DNA of 64,000 nucleotides. Origin: Paludibacteraceae bacterium (GTDB lineage Bacteria; Bacteroidota; Bacteroidia; Bacteroidales; Paludibacteraceae). The translations under genes were made by a program, and so were the position numbers. Where the stretch lies: contig JAZKYY010000010.1 of assembly GCA_045612365.1 (NCBI GenBank), forward strand, positions 5,431 to 69,430. The letters run 5' to 3'. This document shows, piece after piece, positions 5,194 through 45,199 of this stretch. Every line of letters begins with the position of its first letter. Within the stretch, counting starts at the first letter, position 1. The notes below the pieces were generated by a model. The model did not search any database and was not told the origin of the DNA. It saw nothing but the letters and a program-made list of their open reading frames with translations.

Positions 5194-6953
5194 AAAAAAT
5201 ATTGATTCTGATTGGTTGTTTTTGTTCTTTGTTTTTGTTTTCTCAAGGCGTAACTCAGTTTGGTACGCCTACGAATCAAGAGGTTTTTCCGAAAGGAGAA
5301 TATTTTGAACTTGAGGATCCATCAAATGTTGATGTTCTATCGTGGAAAGCAATTGATAAAACTCACGTGGTTTGGGTATCCAAAAATATTCGCTATGCAA
5401 AAAATAGCGTTCCAACTATGACGAAAAAATCGAAAACGCATAAAATAGTAGCTTGGAAAGGCGAACGTGTAAATGCTCAATTTCTCGTTTTTGCTAACGA
5501 AGATATGACGTTGCAGGTTGCTCATAGAGGTGATTTTGAAAACGAGACAACAACTTCATTTGTTCGGTATGTAATGACCGACGAATTGAACAAGGACAAA
5601 AAAGGAGCTTGTGGACATCGACCTGATATTACAATTTACGATTCTTCGTTGGTCGCAGATGTTTTGGATCATATCACCGAAAAATTGCCTTATAAAAAAC
5701 ACACAGTTCAACCAATTTGGGTGCAAGTGCAAGTTCCTCAAGATGCAAAAAAGGGAAGTTATAAAACCACTCTTCTAGTTCAAAATGATAACCAAACTAT
5801 TGGTGAACTAAATTTGCAAATAGATGTAATTGATAGAACTCTTCCGTCCCCAAGCGAATGGAGTTTTCATCTTGATTTGTGGCAAAATCCATTTGCCGAA
5901 GCACGTTATTTTCAGGTGGAACCTTGGAGTGAAGCTCATTTAGAATCGATGCGCTCAACAATGGAAAAATTGGCCAGATCAGGTCAAAAAGTCATTACTG
6001 CGTCCATTATGCACAAACCTTGGGGGGGGCAAACTCAAGATTATTTTGAGTCGATGGTGACTTGGCGAAAAAATAATACGTGGCATTTTGATTTTGATGT
6101 ATTTGATCGTTGGGTAGAGTTTATGATGAGTTGTGGTATTGACAAACAAATCAACTGTTATTCGATGATTCCTTGGAGTTTGTCTTTCCGATATTTTGAC
6201 CAAGCAACAAATAACTTCAAAGCCATTGAAGCAACTCCTTCTGATAGTATTTATGCGGAAGTTTGGACAGAAATGCTTAAGCAGTTTGCTACACATTTGA
6301 AAGAAAAAGGTTGGTTTGAAAAAACAACTATTGCAATGGATGAGCGTCCAAAAGAGCAAATGCTTACGGTGTTTAACATCATAAAAAATGCCGACAAAGA
6401 TTTCAAAGTTTCATTGGCTGGAGATTGGCACGAAGAGTTGGAAGCAGAATTGTATGACTATTGTATTGCGTATCGACACAAATTTCCGGAAGAGATTCTC
6501 CAAAAACGCAAACAAAATGGAATGATTTCTACTTACTACACTTGTTGTACTGAACCATACCCTAACACGTTTACGTTTTCGCAACCTACCGAAGCTGAAT
6601 GTTTAGGTTGGTATACGGCACATTTGGGACTTGATGGATATTTGCGTTGGGCTTATAATAGTTATACGTTGGAACCATTGCTCGATTCTAGATTTCGTTC
6701 TTTCGCTGCTGGTGATTGCTACATTGTTTATCCAGAAGGACGAAGTTCAATTCGCTTTGAAAAATTGACTGAAGGCATCCAAAATTTTGAAAAAATACAG
6801 ATTTTAAGAAAAGAATTTGAGGAGAAAAATCAAGTAACTAAATTAAAAAAACTTGAAGTTCTATTGAATCAATTTTCGCAAGAAAATCTAACAGATAAAA
6901 ACATAACTTCTATTGTAGAAAAAGCGAATAAACAATTACAGAAATTGTGGTAA
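5190..6953 (+). CDS. Secreted DUF4091 / GH123-like glycoside hydrolase family protein
   Basis: 587 aa with an N-terminal signal peptide ('MKKILILIGCFCSLFLFSQ'). Size and Trp-rich central region resemble my recollection of Bacteroidota DUF4091 proteins. The family assignment is tentative. Confidence 0.45.
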   Translation: MKKILILIGCFCSLFLFSQGVTQFGTPTNQEVFPKGEYFELEDPSNVDVLSWKAIDKTHVVWVSKNIRYAKNSVPTMTKKSKTHKIVAWKGERVNAQFLVFANEDMTLQVAHRGDFENETTTSFVRYVMTDELNKDKKGACGHRPDITIYDSSLVADVLDHITEKLPYKKHTVQPIWVQVQVPQDAKKGSYKTTLLVQNDNQTIGELNLQIDVIDRTLPSPSEWSFHLDLWQNPFAEARYFQVEPWSEAHLESMRSTMEKLARSGQKVITASIMHKPWGGQTQDYFESMVTWRKNNTWHFDFDVFDRWVEFMMSCGIDKQINCYSMIPWSLSFRYFDQATNNFKAIEATPSDSIYAEVWTEMLKQFATHLKEKGWFEKTTIAMDERPKEQMLTVFNIIKNADKDFKVSLAGDWHEELEAELYDYCIAYRHKFPEEILQKRKQNGMISTYYTCCTEPYPNTFTFSQPTEAECLGWYTAHLGLDGYLRWAYNSYTLEPLLDSRFRSFAAGDCYIVYPEGRSSIRFEKLTEGIQNFEKIQILRKEFEEKNQVTKLKKLEVLLNQFSQENLTDKNITSIVEKANKQLQKLW

Positions 6954-40699: not shown

Positions 40700-40724
40700 A
40701 ATTTTTCTAGAAAAAGAACAGTTA

Positions 40725-40759
40725 AAAACCAACTCAAAATTTTGGGTCGGTTTTTTTTA
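40725..40759 (+). terminator. Probable rho-independent terminator of secG
   Basis: Imperfect stem ACCAACTC/GGGTCGGT followed by T8. Confidence 0.5.
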
Positions 40760-40852
40760 TTGTTAGTGGTAAATAATTTTTTTCTTTACATTTGCCCTAG
40801 TATGATGAACGTGTGCAACATATTATTCCCATTAGAAACCTGCGAGTTTTCT

Positions 40853-40865
40853 ACACACACACACA
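40853..40865. repeat. (AC)6A microsatellite in the 329-nt spacer left of the island
   Basis: 'acacacacacaca' read directly from the sequence. Confidence 0.9.
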
Positions 40866-41028
40866 AGAAATAGGGCGTTTTTGCCTACGCATAAGTTATA
40901 CATAAGTCGGTCGATTTTGAAGGAAGTCGAGCGTTTTTTTTATTAACAGAATGTTTTTATATGTTCAATATTATAAAAAATCACTTTTTAAGAGGGAGCA
41001 TTCTAAAAAAATGAATTTCTAAAGGAAA

Positions 41029-42294
41029 ATGGTTCTTATTTGGATAAAACGGATATTAGGTATAGTAACAACACCATCAAATGAAAATGACGGTGATAAA
41101 ATTGCATTGCTAAAATCGTTAGGCAAAGAACACTCCTTACAAGAATTAGACATTCGAAAGAGAATCACCCGGGAAGAAAAAGAAAAGATAAAATTATCTC
41201 CGATAAGCTGGTATAAGATTTTAATTCATAAACATATCGAAAGAGTTCCGAATAATATTTTTCAGGCATATAAACTTAATAAAGTTTTGACTCTGAAAGA
41301 ATTGAAGGAAGAACGATTAAAGAAAGAAGCTCATGAATTGAAAGTTCTAGAAGATAGTGTAAATGCCTTACTTCTAGATATAGATTCCTTAATAAAAAAT
41401 CGAAAAGCAGAAGATGCAAAACGTAAATTAAATACTGTTTTAGAAAAAATTGTCAAAGTAAAAGATTCTTCCATTCGATATAGACTTAATCAACTTCAAA
41501 TTTCTTTAGATAAACTTCTAACAGAACTTAAAGAAGAGGAACTTGCAAGACTAGCAGAAGAAAGACGACGCAGAGAAGAAGAAGCCAAAAGGCAAAAGGA
41601 AGCAGAAGAAAGAGCAAAGAAAGAGAGAGAAAGGAAAGAGCGAGAAGAAAGGGAAAGGAAAGAAGCACAAGCAAAACGACTTGCCGATGAAGCAAGACGA
41701 AAGGAAGATGCAGAAAGGCAAGAACGCCAGCGGCTGGAGGCGCTTTCTTCTGAGTTAAAGGATGACTGGCAGGCAATAATTGATGTTTTGAATGAGAATG
41801 GTATAAGATATTTGTATCATTTTACTGACAGAAGCAATATTTCACTAATCAAAAGATATGGTGGGCTCTTATCTTGGGCTTATTGTGAGAGGCATGGAAT
41901 AAGAATACCAAAACCCGGAGGTGGTCAACTAAGTCGTCAATTAGATGTAAGCAGAAATCTACAAGACTATGTAAGAATCAGTTTCACGAGGGAACACCCA
42001 ATGAAATATAAAGCGAAAAATGATGGTAGAATAACCGACCCTGTAAATCTTATAATTGACATAAGAGCTGCTTGTATTGCAAGTGCATTGTATTCCAATA
42101 AGAATGCAACAATAATGCGTGAACCTGTAAACATTGGTAGTACAATTGACGATTTGAAACAAATACATTTTCGTTCGGTTAAAGCATCCAAACATTTTGA
42201 CTTGGACGATGAAGAGCGTTCCTACTTCCAAGCAGAGATTATGATTAAAACATTCCTTTCCAAAAAGTATATAATAAATCTAGATAAATTTTGA
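41029..42294 (+). CDS. Coiled-coil / ER-K helix protein with a C-terminal DarT-like (DUF4433) ADP-ribosyltransferase domain
   Basis: 421 aa. Residues ~167-238 are almost pure E/R/K/A ('EERRRREEEAKRQKEAEERAKKERERKEREERERKEAQAKR...'). Residues ~246-421 carry 'LYHFTDRSNISLIKRYGGLLS', 'LQDYVRISF' and 'YFQAEIMIK' in the order of the DarT H-Y-E motifs. Confidence 0.6.
   Translation: MVLIWIKRILGIVTTPSNENDGDKIALLKSLGKEHSLQELDIRKRITREEKEKIKLSPISWYKILIHKHIERVPNNIFQAYKLNKVLTLKELKEERLKKEAHELKVLEDSVNALLLDIDSLIKNRKAEDAKRKLNTVLEKIVKVKDSSIRYRLNQLQISLDKLLTELKEEELARLAEERRRREEEAKRQKEAEERAKKERERKEREERERKEAQAKRLADEARRKEDAERQERQRLEALSSELKDDWQAIIDVLNENGIRYLYHFTDRSNISLIKRYGGLLSWAYCERHGIRIPKPGGGQLSRQLDVSRNLQDYVRISFTREHPMKYKAKNDGRITDPVNLIIDIRAACIASALYSNKNATIMREPVNIGSTIDDLKQIHFRSVKASKHFDLDDEERSYFQAEIMIKTFLSKKYIINLDKF
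41527..41742 (+). repeat. Polypurine low-complexity tract encoding the ER/K segment
   Basis: Roughly 200 nt made almost entirely of A/G on the plus strand (gaagaaagacgacgcagagaagaagaagcc...). Confidence 0.85.
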
Positions 42295-42297
42295 ATT

Positions 42298-42996
42298 ATG
42301 ATATACGTCGTAAATAAAAAGCGAAAGCTGGAGAAAGTCAAAGAGGATTTCCCTAATGCAACGATATTGGATATTACCTCAACCTCTAATATGAGATATG
42401 CGCAGATATTGAGTCCTTTCTATCCGCACATGAACATTCCCATACCATTTACGGAAGGACTGACGGCTACATGTGTAGAAGCCGTATGGCAAGGACTGAA
42501 GGTCTTTGATGGTGCGGATGTAGATTTTGCCACATTCAGAAATGACACGATGAGAGACTTGAAACGAACAGTTCGCAAGTATGGTATGCCAAAGGGACAT
42601 CGAAAAGGAGCATACGGGAAAGAATTGTTAGGCTACTTTGAGGCTCGAATGCTCATTTATTTACCAACGTACAAGTGGGTACTCGATAATGCCCCAGAAG
42701 TGCATCATGTAGTAGAACGCATAAAAGAGCAAAGCAAGATACATGATATAATTCTATTAGATTATAACACCAACATCGATTTCCGAGATGCTTCAAAGCC
42801 GTTATCACATGCAGGGCTTGTAAAACTCTATATCGAAGGGAATTATCCTAAGGGCTTAGAGGGTTATCAGCCAATGACGAAAGATGAATTGGAGCAAAAG
42901 AAATTACGAGACAAGGAGCTGAGAAAAGAAATAAAAAAACAGGCAGAAATGAAAAAAATATTAGGAGATATAACTCTATTTGATAATAACGAATAA
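42298..42996 (+). CDS. NADAR (YbiA/DUF1768)-like protein, candidate ADP-ribose-removing antidote (tentative)
   Basis: 232 aa. 'LSPFYP...GLTATCVEAVWQGLKVF' resembles the NADAR 'FSNF...SxEHYFQAxKF' core, and 'LLDYNTN...SHAGLVKLYIEG' resembles its C-terminal block. Starts 3 nt after the DarT-like gene. Confidence 0.4.
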   Translation: MIYVVNKKRKLEKVKEDFPNATILDITSTSNMRYAQILSPFYPHMNIPIPFTEGLTATCVEAVWQGLKVFDGADVDFATFRNDTMRDLKRTVRKYGMPKGHRKGAYGKELLGYFEARMLIYLPTYKWVLDNAPEVHHVVERIKEQSKIHDIILLDYNTNIDFRDASKPLSHAGLVKLYIEGNYPKGLEGYQPMTKDELEQKKLRDKELRKEIKKQAEMKKILGDITLFDNNE

Positions 42997-43008
42997 AATT
43001 ACAACGAT

Positions 43009-44538
43009 ATGGAAAATATAAACGAATACATTGGTTTGATACTGGCAGTTGCCATTGTGCTTATTGTGATAACCCTTCAAGTTATTAGTTTTATCGAAAC
43101 ACAAAATAAAATTAAAGAACTTTGTGGCTTGTTTAATGATGTAGAAAAACTTATTTTGAAAGAAACTTCTATTACAACAAGCAATCTCAGTACAAAAAGG
43201 TCTTTACAAACATTCTTGAAGAATATTCCTAACCGTCATGTAAAAGACGAAGCTGAAGAGGAAGATGAGCATACCGATTATACAGATCTTTCACTCGTAG
43301 TCTTCTCTAATGGAAGAAATGCCAACAAACGTATGCGAATGATAGTAGATAGAACTAATGAATATCTCTGTAAGAATACGGGCACAAGTGCAGATTTAGG
43401 GATACTTGAAGATATTTGTGACAATCAGAAGAATGCTCTTGAAGATGAAATACACAACAGCTTAAATGTTCCCCTTTATCTTGGATTGTCTGGAACATTT
43501 ATCGGCATCATTACAGGTCTATGGGGTATTGATTTTCAAAAAATATTTGGAGTTGGAGGAGAACTTACAGGGCTTCAACATCTTCTATATGGTGTAGTAG
43601 TAGCTATGATTGCCAGTCTTCTGGGATTAGGGCTTACCGTATTTAACAGTGCCATTTCGTACAAAGCTGCAATTTCGAAAGCCAACGAGGGGAAAGGAGA
43701 TTATATGGATTTTCTCCGTCGTGAATTGATGCCACTTTTGTCAAATAGTATGGCATCAAGCTTGAACTCTTTGCGAGGTGTACTTGGCCACTTTGTTGAC
43801 AAGTTTGGACGAAATCTTGATGCTTATGCCGATTCTGCCGAATTACTTAATGACAATCTAGAGAAACAACATTTAGTATTAGAAGAAATTAACAAATTGA
43901 GTTTAACAAAAACTGCTAATAAAATAGCAGAAACTTTCGTTCAATTAAAAGATTCCTCCGACTCACTCTCAATATTTCAAACATATCAACAACAACTAAA
44001 CACTACAATTGCTAATGTATCGGGAGTAGTTACTCAAATACAAACATTACTAACTAAATTTGAAGAGTTTTCTGTTGGCTTGTCACTTGTTGTCAGTAAT
44101 CAAAACAAAACAAATGAATTGCAAAGAGAATTCCAAGAAGCCATAACAACACATTTCCCAACTGGTTCAGAAGCGAGGGATGCTTGGCGCAAGGAGTTTG
44201 ATTTGTTTATATCGGAAGGGAAACAAGTTTCAGAGAGCCTGTCTACACAACTAACAGCATCTACAGAGCATATTCAGAACTTCGTCGCAAATAACAAAGA
44301 ATTCTTTGACACGTTTGATAAGATAAAAGAAGTACTTGCTACGATGGTACAATATACGCAAGTACAAGCCGATTGCTACAAGGATTTGAAGGGGGAAGTT
44401 TTGAATTTGCGTAAAGATTATAAGGATGCACAGCAAGAGTCCATCGAGTTACATAAGGCAACACTGCAAGCTGTAGATGCAATGACAAAAGCCATTAAAG
44501 ATATAAACAAAAATAATTATGGCAAAAAAGAAATATAG
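43009..44538 (+). CDS. ZorA-like MotA/ExbB/TolQ-family channel protein with a long C-terminal helical tail
   Basis: 509 aa. TM1 spans aa 8-28. Channel helices are 'PLYLGLSGTFIGIITGLWG' and 'LLYGVVVAMIASLLGLGLTVFNSAI', followed by ~285 aa of heptad-like helical sequence. Confidence 0.7.
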   Translation: MENINEYIGLILAVAIVLIVITLQVISFIETQNKIKELCGLFNDVEKLILKETSITTSNLSTKRSLQTFLKNIPNRHVKDEAEEEDEHTDYTDLSLVVFSNGRNANKRMRMIVDRTNEYLCKNTGTSADLGILEDICDNQKNALEDEIHNSLNVPLYLGLSGTFIGIITGLWGIDFQKIFGVGGELTGLQHLLYGVVVAMIASLLGLGLTVFNSAISYKAAISKANEGKGDYMDFLRRELMPLLSNSMASSLNSLRGVLGHFVDKFGRNLDAYADSAELLNDNLEKQHLVLEEINKLSLTKTANKIAETFVQLKDSSDSLSIFQTYQQQLNTTIANVSGVVTQIQTLLTKFEEFSVGLSLVVSNQNKTNELQREFQEAITTHFPTGSEARDAWRKEFDLFISEGKQVSESLSTQLTASTEHIQNFVANNKEFFDTFDKIKEVLATMVQYTQVQADCYKDLKGEVLNLRKDYKDAQQESIELHKATLQAVDAMTKAIKDINKNNYGKKEI

Positions 44539-45199
44539 TGACTCATTCTGGCTCAGTTATTCGGATTTGATGACGAGTCTCTTTTTCATTATGCTAGTTT
44601 TGTTCATAATATGTGTGGCCAAAATGGGCAAAGCTTTAAATGATGCTAATGCTTCGAATGAACAATTAAAGCGTATTCTACAACTCGACACCATGTTTGT
44701 AGAACTAAGCAAAACGTCTGCGTTACAATATGTCGAGGAACAGAAGATGTTTGTTGCAAAGGATTTTATTGGTATTGAAATTTTTAATCCGTTTACAGGT
44801 TCAAATTGGGAAGAAGCAACTACTATTAAGCAAGAATATCTTCAAACAGTAGATTTTGTTGGACAATCTCTTTTAAAAGTCGTAAAAACACTATATGAGA
44901 AAAATCCAGATTTGAATTTCCAATTAGTTATTGAAGGTTATGCTGCTATTCCTTGGCAGCTACTTCAAAATCACAGCTATAATGCAGATAATAAAAGAAT
45001 GTATGAACTAAGCTACCATCGAGCATTATCACTTTATCGCAGATGGCTTTCAAAAGGCATAAACCTTCGAACTTATAATACAGAAGTTATTATTGCTGGA
45101 AGTGGATTTAATGGAAACAATAGAGATAATAAAGTGGAAGAGAATAACAAAAGGTTTGTGATTCAGATTATTCCAAAGATTTCAATGCCCTCCAAATAA
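44519..45199 (+). CDS. ZorB-like MotB/OmpA-family protein
   Basis: 226 aa. 'FWLSYSDLMTSLFFIMLVLFII' is a MotB-type TM helix with the conserved Asp. The OmpA-like C-terminus reads 'LVIEGYAA...ELSYHRALSLYRRWL...IIAGSG'. 20-nt overlap with the ZorA-like gene. Confidence 0.7.
   Translation: MAKKKYSDSFWLSYSDLMTSLFFIMLVLFIICVAKMGKALNDANASNEQLKRILQLDTMFVELSKTSALQYVEEQKMFVAKDFIGIEIFNPFTGSNWEEATTIKQEYLQTVDFVGQSLLKVVKTLYEKNPDLNFQLVIEGYAAIPWQLLQNHSYNADNKRMYELSYHRALSLYRRWLSKGINLRTYNTEVIIAGSGFNGNNRDNKVEENNKRFVIQIIPKISMPSK

What the first reader, a model, noticed from the sequence alone, without database searches (positions are those of the whole stretch)
41029..42294. DarT-like domain carries a ~245-aa N-terminal extension with an ER/K single-alpha-helix-like spacer
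Stand-alone DarT proteins are, as I recall, about 200-230 aa. Here the ART-like domain is only the last ~175 aa. It is preceded by heptad-like coiled-coil sequence (aa ~85-165) and a ~70-residue block made almost only of E/R/K/A (aa ~167-238). That block is encoded by a ~200-nt polypurine tract. ER/K blocks form rigid single alpha-helices in other proteins. One inference is that this helix acts as a spacer or docking rod toward the long helical tail of the adjacent ZorA-like protein. That would tether or gate the toxin physically, rather than or in addition to an antitoxin.
Basis: partly seen in the sequence, partly recalled or inferred. Interest (0 to 1): 0.65.

Follow-up and report, generated by a model that had tools for sequence, protein, structure and literature searches.

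The report
Motor-linked DNA toxin on a rigid stalk
A gut Bacteroidales bacterium carries a four-gene, probably anti-phage cassette in which a DNA-modifying toxin sits on a rigid charged helix of nearly fixed length, behind an adaptor module found only next to a Zorya-type membrane motor, which gives a concrete handle on how such motors connect to their effectors.

Summary
ORF1 (41029-42294, 421 aa) has a DarT-family ADP-ribosyltransferase fold only in aa ~244-421. Aa 167-238 are 84% E/R/K/A, ordered for i/i+3 and i/i+4 salt bridges, and AlphaFold2 models them as part of one 93-residue helix (pLDDT ~95).

The extension contains two modules with different partners:
- **Adaptor (aa 1-166):** an amphipathic start, a conserved DWY motif and a three-helix bundle. 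It occurred next to ZorA/ZorB-like genes in 52 of 52 loci that could be assessed. One of these loci has a nuclease effector instead of DarT. Its divergence tracks the ZorA-like protein (rho 0.91-0.93).
- **ER/K helix:** it travels with this DarT clade. It also occurs in relatives that lack ZorAB and carry an N-terminal transmembrane helix. Its length is tightly held (72 ± 1.7 aa).

The helix is therefore best read as a fixed-length spacer, not the docking element. The DUF6939 gene (NADAR-like) always accompanies DarT, so any tethering adds to an antitoxin-like partner. The DarT head is exchanged between otherwise near-identical cassettes.

I read the cassette as a previously undescribed Zorya-like subtype. 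Physical docking, enzyme activity and phage defence are all untested.

The parts
41029..42294 (+). ORF1, 421 aa: the effector, built as adaptor module + ER/K stalk + DarT head
   Evidence: About 80 full-length homologues down to 33% identity.
41029..41061 (+). N-terminal amphipathic motif MxLxW(L/I)K(R/K)(I/L)(L/F)G, aa 1-11
   Evidence: Conserved at the very N-terminus across the ZorAB-linked family. AlphaFold2 gives a short helix at aa 3-9 with low confidence. ZorAB-less relatives have a transmembrane helix here instead.
41122..41226 (+). Helix aa 32-53 and the conserved S-x-DWY motif (aa ~57-66), inside a region of otherwise low confidence
   Evidence: Consensus LDxRKxxAKEEKExxKxSSxDWY. H32-53 is modelled; aa 57-78 have pLDDT below 50.
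41293..41526 (+). Three-helix bundle, aa 89-166; with aa 1-88 it forms the ZorAB-associated adaptor module
   Evidence: AlphaFold2 H89-123, H127-141 and H147 onward, pLDDT 86-96. Length 78 ± 0.6 aa. The aa 1-166 profile finds 81 cluster representatives among 1.84 billion proteins, including effectors that are not DarT. ZorAB-like genes follow in 52 of 52 loci that could be assessed.
41527..41742 (+). ER/K single-alpha-helix-like stalk, aa 167-238 (about 10.8 nm as an ideal helix); purine-rich coding tract
   Evidence: Composition and purine content. No hydrophobic residues in aa 176-217. Salt-bridge ordering exceeds 5000 of 5000 shuffles, and there is no charge stripe. It lies within helix 147-239. 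Length 72.0 ± 1.7 aa. Only weak DNA-level repeats at 41601-41664.
41743..42291 (+). Junction helix plus DarT-family ADP-ribosyltransferase head, aa 239-421. Y263-H264-F265-T266 and Q401-A402-E403 are invariant.
   Evidence: Pfam, family profile against PDB DarTs, Foldseek, invariant columns. The head is exchanged between otherwise near-identical cassettes.
42298..42996 (+). ORF2, 232 aa: DUF6939, a divergent NADAR-like protein and presumed antitoxin or ADP-ribose-removing partner of the DarT head
   Evidence: PF22075 at 7.5e-69, and NADAR-DarT1 PF22397 at 5.5e-5, below the Pfam cutoff. 37 of 43 family members hit PF22397, best 3.6e-7. Adjacent to the DarT gene in all 51 cassettes assessed and in five of nine ZorAB-less loci; absent with the nuclease effector.
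43009..44538 (+). ORF3, 509 aa: ZorA-like MotA/ExbB/TolQ-type subunit with a ~280-aa cytoplasmic tail (aa 230-509, nt 43696-44535)
   Evidence: PADLOC ZorA1 at 1.8e-5. At family level, 15 of 28 members hit ZorA1 (best 4e-11) and 14 of 28 hit ZorA2. The family profile's best PDB hit is the ZorA chain 8vvn_C, E=0.0068. Transmembrane segments and tail. Tail length 274.5 ± 2 aa and net charge -8.8 ± 1.8.
44155..44202 (+). Conserved tail motif HFPTGSEARDxWRKEFD in ORF3 (aa 383-398)
   Evidence: F383, P384, R390, W393, R394 and D398 are invariant in 28 sequences. The motif is also kept in the short-tailed 399-aa homologue of L016.
44519..45199 (+). ORF4, 226 aa: ZorB-like MotB-type subunit. One transmembrane helix carries Asp16 (nt 44564-44566) in the motif SYSDLMT. 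It overlaps ORF3 by 20 nt.
   Evidence: PADLOC ZorB1 at 3.4e-9. NCBIfam ZorB1 at 2.3e-5, below cutoff. PDB ZorB chains 8vvn_B at 0.0024 and 8qyd_F at 0.027, where SYSDLMT aligns with SYADLMT. Transmembrane segment.

Best explanation
ORF1 is the effector subunit of a four-gene Zorya-like cassette: effector, NADAR-like DUF6939, a ZorA-like protein and a ZorB-like protein. It is built from three modules.

1. **Adaptor, aa 1-166.** It comprises an amphipathic N-terminal peptide, a DWY motif and a three-helix bundle. It is specific to this ZorAB-like motor. I infer that it is the part that couples the effector to the motor, most likely to the conserved, acidic ZorA-like tail.
2. **ER/K single alpha-helix, aa 167-238.** It continues the last bundle helix for about 11 nm. 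It acts as a rigid spacer or tether of fixed length, holding the catalytic head at a set distance from its membrane-associated anchor. The same device is used by relatives anchored directly by a transmembrane helix.
3. **DarT-family head, aa ~244-421.** It is exchangeable. By analogy with DarT1 and DarT2, it ADP-ribosylates DNA bases using NAD+.

By analogy with Zorya type I, the motor would sense envelope perturbation during phage entry and activate or position the tethered head near the membrane. DUF6939 would reverse or restrain stray modification of host DNA.

**Shown here:** the domain composition, the helix signature, the length constraint, the co-occurrence and co-divergence patterns, and the head swapping.

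**Inferred:** physical docking, enzymatic activity and target base, antitoxin activity, and anti-phage function.
For: **Architecture**
- DarT by Pfam, by profile search of the PDB (7omu 2e-7, 8baq 9e-5, 7omv 2e-4) and by fold.
- Catalytic-type motifs YHFT and QAE are invariant in 52 sequences.
- The AlphaFold2 model has mean pLDDT 85.5, with a single helix over aa 147-239.

**Single-helix signature**
- 84% E/R/K/A, no hydrophobic seam, no P or G.
- 60 salt-bridge pairs against 36 ± 4.3 in shuffles.

**Length constraint**
- Adaptor end to YHFT is 97 aa at the median, SD 2.0, in 46 unique proteins. The most distant of these loci (L075) is 31% identical to ORF1 by tblastn.
- The ER/K block is 72.0 ± 1.7 aa and the ZorA-like tail 274.5 ± 2.0 aa in 39 unique cassettes.

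**Adaptor assignment**
- N-module + DarT is followed by DUF6939 + ZorA-like + ZorB-like in 51 of 51 loci that could be assessed.
- P0184 (719 aa) is N-module + DUF559/PD-(D/E)XK nuclease, with no ER/K and no DarT. It is followed directly by ORF3 (63% identity) and ORF4 (50%) homologues, with no DUF6939.
- P0196 (N-module + a different C-terminus) is followed by divergent ZorA/ZorB-like genes.
- P0137 (N-module + ER/K + DarT + nuclease) has the full cassette.
- Loci without the N-module lack ZorAB in 9 of 10 cases. The exception, L079, has a divergent version of the same layout.
- N-module distances correlate with ZorA-like head and tail distances at rho 0.93 and 0.91. The DarT head correlates at only ~0.5 with everything else.

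**ER/K belongs to the DarT clade**
- Relatives with an N-terminal transmembrane helix (317-703 aa) keep an ER/K block ending 13-26 aa before YHFT (a few at 7-8), and have only DUF6939 next door.

**Zorya homology:**

**Zorya model** (tail needed to recruit and activate effectors; proposed local action near the membrane): PMC11946911 and PMC11890865.

**Defence-island-type neighbours in other loci:** DNA methylases and RteC, HipA and an integrase, a TerY/kinase/PP2C set.
Against: - No interaction was computed or measured, because no multimer prediction was available. Adaptor-tail docking rests on co-occurrence and co-divergence. Shared descent of a tightly linked operon would also produce that pattern.
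- For the window's own proteins, ZorA and ZorB homology is weak (1.8e-5 and 3.4e-9 in PADLOC). No curated NCBIfam or Pfam threshold is reached.
- The link between DUF6939 and NADAR is below the Pfam gathering score for the window protein. The PDB profile hit is not significant (E=0.96). The fold test failed (pLDDT 39).
- AlphaFold2 tends to give confident helices for ER/K sequence, so pLDDT alone does not prove a monomeric helix in solution.
- Many of the loci are closely related gut or rumen metagenome contigs, so 51 of 51 is not 51 independent events. There are about 40 clusters at 50% identity.
- No phage-defence experiment exists for this cassette.
Confidence: 0.6

Rival explanations
1. 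The ER/K helix is itself the docking rod. It lies along, or binds, the long ZorA-like tail, and so physically gates the toxin.
For: The ER/K helix and the ZorA-like tail are both held to nearly invariant lengths (72.0 ± 1.7 and 274.5 ± 2.0 aa). ER/K distances also correlate with ZorA-like distances (rho 0.87-0.88). 42 of 72 ER/K columns conserve charge class. The tail is uniformly acidic.
Against: The ER/K block persists in transmembrane-anchored relatives that have no ZorAB genes. It is absent from the nuclease effector P0184, which pairs with the same ZorAB-like genes. The block is nearly neutral (+1.7 ± 2.3) and has no charged or hydrophobic face: its charge moment of 0.01 is below that of 99% of shuffles. 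This gives no obvious binding surface.
Confidence: 0.12
2. The ER/K helix is a tuner of autoinhibition. As in engineered ER/K linkers, its length sets the effective concentration at which the N-terminal module contacts and inhibits the DarT head within one molecule. Motor activation would relieve this.
For: The strict length conservation fits this as well as it fits a ruler. The head and adaptor sit at opposite ends of one continuous helix. ER/K linkers are known to control interaction frequency between the domains they join; this is from my memory of Sivaramakrishnan and Spudich 2011, which I did not retrieve here.
Against: The DarT head is swapped between two subtypes only 45% identical while the adaptor stays 95% identical. 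A specific head-adaptor inhibitory interface would be hard to keep under those conditions. Transmembrane-anchored relatives lack the adaptor yet keep the helix. Foldseek matched the DarT head and, only weakly, the helical bundle as separate pieces. I could not inspect head-adaptor contacts or inter-domain confidence in the model.
Confidence: 0.12
3. The ER/K helix is a DNA-binding single alpha-helix or ruler, like the KER helix of CAF-1, and helps the DarT head engage DNA.
For: A single alpha-helix that binds DNA and acts as a spacer is documented for CAF-1 (PMC10335832, found). The adjacent domain acts on DNA. The block is 37% basic.
Against: Net charge is only +2 (family mean +1.7). Positive charges are spread evenly round the helix, with no basic stripe. 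Canonical DarT1 and DarT2 need no such element, being 208-223 aa.
Confidence: 0.06
4. The block is a functionally neutral low-complexity linker, produced by slippage in a purine-rich tract. Alternatively, the cassette is a plain toxin-antitoxin module sitting next to an unrelated MotAB-type pair, and is not a coupled defence system.
For: There are weak DNA-level repeats inside the tract. Homopolymer A runs of 7-9 are common in the tract, and frameshifted alleles exist. DarT + DUF6939 also occurs as a stand-alone pair.
Against: The length SD is about 2 aa across sequences down to about 31-33% identity, and residue order is non-random. This is the opposite of a drifting slippage product. The four genes are separated by 3 nt and 12 nt or overlap by 20 nt, and they move together between unrelated genomic contexts. 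The adaptor also accompanies ZorAB-like genes when the effector is different.
Confidence: 0.08

Closest known systems
Zorya anti-phage systems, types I-III (ZorAB with ZorC/ZorD, ZorE, or ZorF/ZorG)
   Same: A MotA-like subunit with a long cytoplasmic tail and a MotB-like subunit with the transmembrane Asp, encoded together with soluble effector genes in one operon. In the published model the tail is required to recruit and activate effectors near the membrane (PMC11946911, PMC11890865).
   Different: - None of the known effectors ZorC, D, E, F or G is present. The effector here is a DarT-family ADP-ribosyltransferase with a NADAR-like partner.
- The effector genes lie upstream of zorAB.
- The tail is shorter (~280 aa against ~500 in E. 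coli ZorA).
- The effector carries a recognisable adaptor shared by alternative effectors.
- The ZorA/ZorB sequence similarity is remote.
DarTG1 (DarT1 + NADAR) toxin-antitoxin and defence system
   Same: A DarT-fold toxin with an invariant HFT motif and catalytic-type Glu. The next gene downstream resembles the DarT1-associated NADAR family. The NADAR antitoxin role is described in PMC11543638.
   Different: - The toxin is twice as long, with a 243-aa non-catalytic extension.
- The partner is classified as DUF6939, not as a bona fide NADAR.
- The pair is embedded in a cassette with a membrane motor, or in relatives is anchored by a transmembrane helix.
- The target base is unknown.
DarTG2 (DarT2 + macrodomain DarG)
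   Same: The same toxin fold. The best profile hit is the Thermosipho DarTG fusion 7omu.
   Different: There is no macrodomain antitoxin in the cassette. The domain architecture differs.
ER/K single alpha-helices of eukaryotic proteins (myosin VI/X lever extensions, INCENP, drebrin, CAF-1 KER)
   Same: The composition, the i/i+4 salt-bridge pattern, the absence of a hydrophobic seam, and the role as a connector between two functional domains (papers listed).
   Different: This one is bacterial, sits in a toxin, and continues directly out of a three-helix bundle. Its length is conserved to within about 2 residues. Monomeric stability has not been measured.
Polymorphic toxin systems (conserved delivery or anchor region with exchangeable C-terminal toxin heads)
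   Same: A conserved N-terminal region with a C-terminal catalytic head that is replaced by recombination: adaptor 95% and DarT head 45% identical between L020 and L001. Nuclease heads occur on the same adaptor.
   Different: The protein is intracellular and is not secreted by any recognisable route. The neighbouring DUF6939 does not change with the head, unlike cognate immunity proteins.

Membership tests
DarT (PF14487) DNA ADP-ribosyltransferases | Sequence match above the curated family threshold | tested here: met
   78 bits against a gathering score of 22.5, aa 263-416. NCBIfam's DarT equivalog is not reached (21.5 against 150), so this is a family member and not an equivalog of canonical DarT.
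DarT (PF14487) DNA ADP-ribosyltransferases | DarT/ARTD-type fold | tested here: met
   Foldseek gives eight DarT chains at E from 5e-7 to 1e-4, with target TM-scores mostly 0.52-0.58. The model's pLDDT exceeds 90 in this region.
DarT (PF14487) DNA ADP-ribosyltransferases | NAD-binding H-x-T motif and catalytic Glu | tested here: met
   Y263-H264-F265-T266 and Q401-A402-E403 are invariant in 52 sequences. E403 aligns with the position that is Ala in the crystallised 7omu and 8baq constructs. From memory, those are Glu-to-Ala catalytic mutants.
DarT (PF14487) DNA ADP-ribosyltransferases | NAD+-dependent ADP-ribosylation of ssDNA bases | not testable with these tools
   This needs an enzyme assay.
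DarTG1 (DarT1-NADAR) | Adjacent NADAR-family antitoxin | tested here: inconclusive
   ORF2 hits PF22397 at 23.2 bits, below the cutoff of 27. 37 of 43 family members hit it, best 3.6e-7. The PDB NADAR 8bat scores only E=0.96. The AlphaFold2 model was unusable.
DarTG1 (DarT1-NADAR) | Two-gene toxin-antitoxin behaviour (toxicity neutralised by the partner) | not testable with these tools
   Only adjacency is shown.
Zorya | ZorA: MotA/ExbB/TolQ-type membrane core followed by a long cytoplasmic tail | tested here: met
   PADLOC ZorA1 at 1.8e-5 for ORF3. At family level 15 of 28 members hit ZorA1 (best 4e-11) and 14 of 28 hit ZorA2. The best PDB profile hit is ZorA 8vvn_C at equivalent positions, E=0.0068. 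There are transmembrane helices and a 280-aa tail. The similarity is remote.
Zorya | ZorB: MotB-type subunit with a conserved Asp in the transmembrane helix and a periplasmic OmpA/PG-binding-like domain | tested here: met
   PADLOC ZorB1 at 3.4e-9. ZorB structures 8vvn_B at 0.0024 (aa 7-200) and 8qyd_F at 0.027, with SYSDLMT aligned to SYADLMT. The OmpA-like match is weak (0.098).
Zorya | Type-defining effectors (ZorC+ZorD, ZorE, or ZorF+ZorG) | tested here: not met
   PADLOC gives no Zor effector hit for ORF1 or ORF2. The cassette therefore cannot be filed under types I-III.
Zorya | Protection against phage that depends on all components and on proton flow | not testable with these tools
   No experiment exists. 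No paper on this cassette was found.
ER/K single alpha-helix (SAH) | High E/K/R content, dense i/i+4 opposite-charge pairs, no hydrophobic seam, no helix breakers | tested here: met
ER/K single alpha-helix (SAH) | A stable monomeric helix in solution | not testable with these tools
   AlphaFold2 predicts a continuous helix over aa 147-239. The dedicated predictors Waggawagga and SCAN4CSAH were not available; a home-made score was used instead.

The most novel reading that the evidence does not exclude
The aa 1-166 module is a dedicated adaptor that plugs interchangeable effectors (two DarT subtypes, a PD-(D/E)XK nuclease, a DarT+nuclease double head and others) onto the tail of one family of ZorAB-type rotary motors. 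The fixed-length ER/K helix is a mechanical arm that holds, or swings, a DNA-ADP-ribosylating head about 11-14 nm from that tail. If so, this would be the first identifiable motor-to-effector coupling element in any Zorya-like system. It would also define a new Zorya type whose effector chemistry is reversible DNA ADP-ribosylation rather than nuclease attack.
Probability: 0.35. Interest if true: 0.8.

Novelty: new variant of a known kind. Interest (0 to 1): 0.68.

Why it matters
How the ZorAB motor passes its signal to soluble effectors is the main open point in the Zorya model. Published work shows that the tail is required, but it identifies no docking element (PMC11946911, PMC11890865).

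This cassette offers three things:
- **A candidate docking element.** The effector carries a separable, conserved module that follows the motor genes whatever the catalytic head is. This gives a defined piece to test by pull-down, AF-Multimer and domain swaps.
- **A new pairing of known systems.** It links the DarT/NADAR-type DNA ADP-ribosylation chemistry to a membrane motor.
- **A rare bacterial ER/K helix under strict length selection.** Two anchoring solutions (motor adaptor or transmembrane helix) use the same stalk. This points to a general rule: this toxin clade is kept on a leash at the membrane.

The system occurs in gut and rumen Bacteroidales, where phage defence is less explored.

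Tried and rejected
**Searches and predictions that gave little**
- A word-indexed search with aa 1-166 returned only 7 fragments and did not even recover the known full-length family. I replaced it with an exhaustive profile search.
- The genome-contig scan with the single protein gave only 3 close loci.
The permitted alignment was too shallow (82-95% identity), and the model had pLDDT 38.9. I did not send it to fold search.
- Single-sequence PDB searches for ORF2 and ORF3 found nothing significant. The single-sequence PDB search with ORF1 missed DarT altogether; the family profile was needed.
- NCBIfam reached no curated threshold for any of the four proteins.
- Literature: no paper links Zorya or MotAB with DarT, DUF4433 or DUF6939, and none names further Zorya types.
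- Viral contigs held a single distant DarT-only relative, so the cassette is not typically phage-borne.
- The sigma-70 promoter and terminator scan was at background level, and it is not suited to Bacteroidota in any case.
- Cassette GC (35.3%) equals the window average (35.9%), so composition gives no sign of recent transfer.

**Ideas considered and rejected**
- The ER/K block as a recent tandem expansion. Only weak repeats of 11-24 nt occur within 41601-41664.
- The ER/K block as a coiled coil. It has no a/d hydrophobics.
- A basic DNA-binding stripe. The charge moment is 0.01.
- P0132, where the adaptor is followed by unrelated S/A/G-rich sequence, as a fourth effector type. The contig is only 2.7 kb with no ZorAB region, so it may be an assembly chimera.
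Full report
**1. What is at the coordinates**

The ORF at 41029..42294 (+) encodes 421 aa. It heads a tight four-gene operon:
- ORF2, 42298..42996, begins 3 nt after the ORF1 stop.
- ORF3, 43009..44538, begins 12 nt after the ORF2 stop.
- ORF4, 44519..45199, overlaps ORF3 by 20 nt.

The domain assignments are as follows:
- ORF1: Pfam places DarT (PF14487) at aa 263-416, E=1e-21.
- ORF2: DUF6939 at 7.5e-69, plus a sub-threshold match to the DarT1-associated NADAR family.
- ORF3: PADLOC ZorA1, 1.8e-5.
- ORF4: PADLOC ZorB1, 3.4e-9.

The block at aa 167-238 is 84% E/R/K/A. Its coding DNA is 81% purine. No other place in any reading frame of the window reaches 60% E/R/K over 40 residues.

**2. Structure of ORF1**

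I ran AlphaFold2 on a 52-sequence family alignment. Mean pLDDT was 85.5. The model contains these elements:
- a short N-terminal helix (aa 3-9), at low confidence;
- a disordered linker (aa 11-31);
- helix 32-53;
- a low-confidence stretch (aa 57-78) that holds the conserved DWY motif;
- helices 89-123 and 127-141;
- one uninterrupted helix 147-239, at pLDDT ~95;
- a DarT fold from aa 247.

Foldseek against the PDB returns only DarT structures as significant hits: Thermus DarT at 5e-7, M. tuberculosis DarT, and E. coli C7 DarT1. It returns weak three-helix-bundle matches (ribosomal protein S20, MIT domains) for the helical part. A family profile finds the same DarTs by sequence, at 2e-7 to 2e-4. 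YHFT (aa 263-266) and QAE (aa 401-403) are invariant.

It is better described as a three-helix bundle whose last helix runs on as the ER/K block.

**3. Is the ER/K block a single alpha-helix?**

- Aa 176-217 have no hydrophobic residue and no Pro or Gly. Net charge of the block is +2.
- The order of residues, not just the composition, favours salt bridges. There are 60 opposite-charge i/i+3 and i/i+4 pairs, against 36 ± 4.3 in shuffles, and 0 of 5000 shuffles reach 60.
- Charges are spread evenly round the helix. The helical charge moment is 0.01, below that of 99% of shuffles. There is no basic stripe of the kind that lets the CAF-1 KER helix bind DNA (PMC10335832).

Dedicated SAH predictors were not available, and solution behaviour is untested.

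**4. The extension is conserved, and its length is held**

About 80 full-length homologues exist, 390-450 aa long, down to 33% identity. Three measurements show the length constraint:
- In the alignment the ER/K block is almost free of indels.
- Across 46 unique proteins from 97 loci, the distance from the end of the aa 1-166 module to the YHFT motif is 97 aa at the median, with SD 2.0 and range 90-104.
- In 39 unique complete cassettes, the ER/K block is 72.0 ± 1.7 aa and the ZorA-like tail is 274.5 ± 2.0 aa.

A low-complexity tract encoded by purine-rich DNA with A-runs of up to 9 would be expected to drift in length. It does not. This argues for selection on length.

**5. Which part goes with the motor?**

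Six-frame ORFs of all loci were classified with profile HMMs. The results:

| Effector type | Loci assessed | DUF6939 nearby | ZorA-like + ZorB-like nearby |
|---|---|---|---|
| N-module + ER/K + DarT | 51 | 51 | 51 |
| N-module + nuclease (L013) | 1 | 0 | 1 |
| No N-module detected | 10 | 6 | 1 (L079) |

The protein in L079 has the same layout in divergent form, so it is probably not a true exception. These cassettes lie in unrelated genomic contexts.

An exhaustive profile search with aa 1-166 against 1.84 billion representative proteins found 81 clusters. Nearly all are DarT proteins of ~400-430 aa. The informative exceptions are:
- **P0184 (719 aa).** The same N-module is followed by a DUF559/PD-(D/E)XK nuclease region, with no ER/K block and no DarT. 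Its gene is followed directly by homologues of ORF3 (63% identity) and ORF4 (50%), with no DUF6939.
- **P0137 (936 aa).** N-module + ER/K + DarT + nuclease, in a full cassette.
- **P0196 (474 aa).** N-module + a different helical/zinc-ribbon C-terminus, followed by divergent ZorA-like (399 aa) and ZorB-like genes.

Conversely, DarT relatives that match ORF1 only from aa ~170-244 onward have no ZorAB neighbours. They begin with a hydrophobic transmembrane helix. They still carry an ER/K block of 35-123 aa just before the DarT domain, and they have DUF6939 next door. Examples are Fibrella sp. P0098 (317 aa), P0090 (565 aa) and P0106 (699 aa).

Pairwise-distance correlations point the same way:
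- The N-module tracks the ZorA-like head (rho 0.93) and tail (rho 0.91).
- The DarT head correlates at only ~0.5 with every other part.

The extension is therefore two modules. Aa 1-166 is an adaptor specific to the ZorAB-like pair. The ER/K stalk belongs to this DarT clade whatever its anchor.

**6. The partners**

*ORF4.* It aligns with solved ZorB chains (8vvn_B at 0.0024, 8qyd_F at 0.027). This includes the transmembrane motif SYSDLMT, with Asp16 at the position of the conserved ZorB/MotB Asp.

*ORF3.*
- It has an N-terminal transmembrane helix, the MotA/TolQ-type core around aa 155-217, and then a 280-aa tail.
- At family level, 15 of 28 members hit ZorA1 (best 4e-11) and 14 of 28 hit ZorA2.
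- The family profile's top PDB hit is the ZorA chain 8vvn_C at equivalent positions, E=0.0068.
- The tail is more conserved than the membrane head (mean p-distance 0.27 against 0.39).
- The tail is uniformly acidic, at -8.8 ± 1.8 per chain.
- The tail carries an invariant motif, HFPTGSEARDxWRKEFD.
- The adaptor is basic on average, at +7.6 ± 4.3. This is suggestive complementarity and nothing more.

*ORF2.*
- It belongs to a large and very conserved family. 3168 proteins score E ≤ 0.001, and the top 120 are 82-100% identical.
- 37 of 43 sampled members also hit the NADAR-DarT1 model, best 3.6e-7.
- The fold test failed, so 'NADAR-like' remains probable but unproven.
- ORF2 does not change when the DarT head is swapped. 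That fits an enzyme that removes the modification better than a head-specific binding inhibitor. This is my inference.

**7. Mechanism proposed**

Published work on Zorya I and II shows a ZorA5B2 ion-driven motor. Its cytoplasmic tail is needed to recruit and activate effectors, and action has been proposed to be confined near the membrane (PMC11946911; PMC11890865).

Applied to this cassette:
1. The adaptor couples ORF1 to the ZorAB-like complex (inferred).
2. The ER/K helix holds the DarT head about 11 nm from the bundle. Taken as an ideal helix, 72 residues at 0.15 nm each, or about 14 nm for the whole helix 147-239.
3. On motor activation the head ADP-ribosylates DNA near the entry site (inferred from the family).
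4. DUF6939 limits damage to the host (inferred).

The transmembrane-anchored relatives reach the same geometry without a motor. This is why I read the stalk as a leash or ruler rather than a docking rod.

The rivals are direct ER/K-tail docking, autoinhibition tuning, DNA binding, and a neutral linker. Each is listed separately with its evidence.

**8. Comparison and novelty**

- The cassette meets the ZorA and ZorB features remotely. It lacks every type-defining Zorya effector, so it is not type I, II or III.
- The toxin is a DarT family member, but not an equivalog of canonical DarT.
- The held literature contains nothing on DarT with ZorAB or MotAB, on DUF6939, or on further Zorya types. 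That library excludes many subscription papers, so prior description elsewhere cannot be ruled out.

I rate it a new variant of a known kind: a Zorya-like subtype with a tethered DarT effector and an identifiable adaptor.

**9. Caveats**

- No interaction, activity or defence phenotype has been shown.
- Many loci are closely related metagenome contigs from gut and rumen Bacteroidales (named records: Bacteroidaceae, Paludibacteraceae, Candidatus Gallipaludibacter). Counts therefore overstate independence.
- Co-divergence within a linked operon is expected even without physical contact.
- AlphaFold2 confidence on ER/K sequence is not proof of a monomeric helix.

Noticed in passing
window 41743-42291; compare L001, L002, L003, L020: The DarT catalytic head comes in two subtypes that are exchanged between otherwise near-identical cassettes. 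One has ...PKPGGGQLSRQLD...NKNATI... and the other ...CQGGDYDSxELD...SDMNAADKRH... . In L020 against L001, the adaptor is 95% identical, ER/K 83%, ORF2 96%, ZorA tail 92% and ZorB 97%, but the DarT head only 45%. The recombination junction lies at the end of the ER/K helix. ORF2 does not co-vary with the head.
   Followed up: partly
L072 ~780-800, L073 ~553-563, L081 ~6388-6398, against intact L042; also L030, L052, L065: Three independent assemblies carry the same frameshift. An A9 run at the bundle/ER/K boundary (intact in L042) is A8, which splits the gene into an adaptor ORF and a separate ER/K + DarT remnant. Other loci have an in-frame stop (L030) or frameshifts (L052, L065) inside the purine-rich tract. 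A-runs of 7-9 are common in this tract across the family. These could reflect phase variation, inactivation of a costly toxin, or assembly error.
   Followed up: partly
L013 1801-6118 (P0184); L015 456-6103 (P0137); L016 313-3668 (P0196): The aa 1-166 adaptor is fused to other effectors next to homologous ZorAB-like genes. The effectors are a DUF559/PD-(D/E)XK nuclease (no ER/K, no DUF6939), a DarT+nuclease double head, and a helical-repeat/zinc-ribbon/transmembrane protein paired with a short-tailed (399-aa) ZorA-like protein.
   Followed up: partly
L008 7001-8681 (Fibrella sp. HMF5335); L009 6001-8507; L011 3643-6617: ZorAB-less relatives have the layout N-terminal transmembrane helix, then an optional unknown domain, then ER/K block, then DarT, with only DUF6939 downstream. 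In Fibrella the whole extension is a transmembrane helix plus ~120 aa of ER/K-rich sequence. ER/K length differs between architecture classes (35-57, 70-79 and ~123 aa) but is similar within each class.
   Followed up: partly
P0064 (640 aa, JGI metagenome): A single ORF fuses the full effector to DUF6939 (...KYIVNMIYIESKKRKLEK...). The stop codon between the toxin gene and the presumed antitoxin gene is missing.
   Followed up: no
window 43696-44535 (ORF3 tail), motif at 44155-44202: The ZorA-like tail is more conserved than the membrane core (mean p-distance 0.27 against 0.39) and has constant length (274.5 ± 2 aa). It contains long near-invariant stretches (LRRELMPLLSNSMASSLNSLRGVLGHFVDKFGRNLDAYADSAELLNDNLEKQHLVL) and Gly/Pro-containing motifs, so it is probably not a plain continuous coiled coil.
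   Followed up: partly
L010 894-13481: In one locus the effector (532 aa, with a longer N-terminus) and the ZorAB-like genes sit directly downstream of TerY_C, protein kinase, VWA and PP2C phosphatase genes. DUF6939 lies three genes away on the opposite strand, next to a kinase/LRR protein. L012 shows DUF6939 + DarT-VWA-type proteins next to a similar kinase/LRR gene.
   Followed up: no
window 42298-42996 (ORF2): DUF6939 is far more conserved and more abundant than its neighbours. 3168 database proteins score E ≤ 0.001, and the top 120 are 82-100% identical. ORF1 homologues fall to 40% identity within the same set of genomes. ORF2 also has a K/E-rich C-terminal tail (aa ~195-221) predicted to be helical.
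   Followed up: no
ORF4 homologues across loci: ZorB-like distances correlate poorly with the rest of the cassette (rho 0.42-0.51, and 0.23 with the DarT head). This suggests that this subunit, or its periplasmic domain, is also exchanged or evolves under different pressure.
   Followed up: no
window 40853-40866 and 40700-41028: The 330-bp AT-rich (29.8% GC) region upstream of ORF1 contains a short (CA)n run (ctacacacacacacaag) and two hairpin + T-run elements downstream of the preceding gene. No promoter could be assigned with the sigma-70 scan.
   Followed up: no
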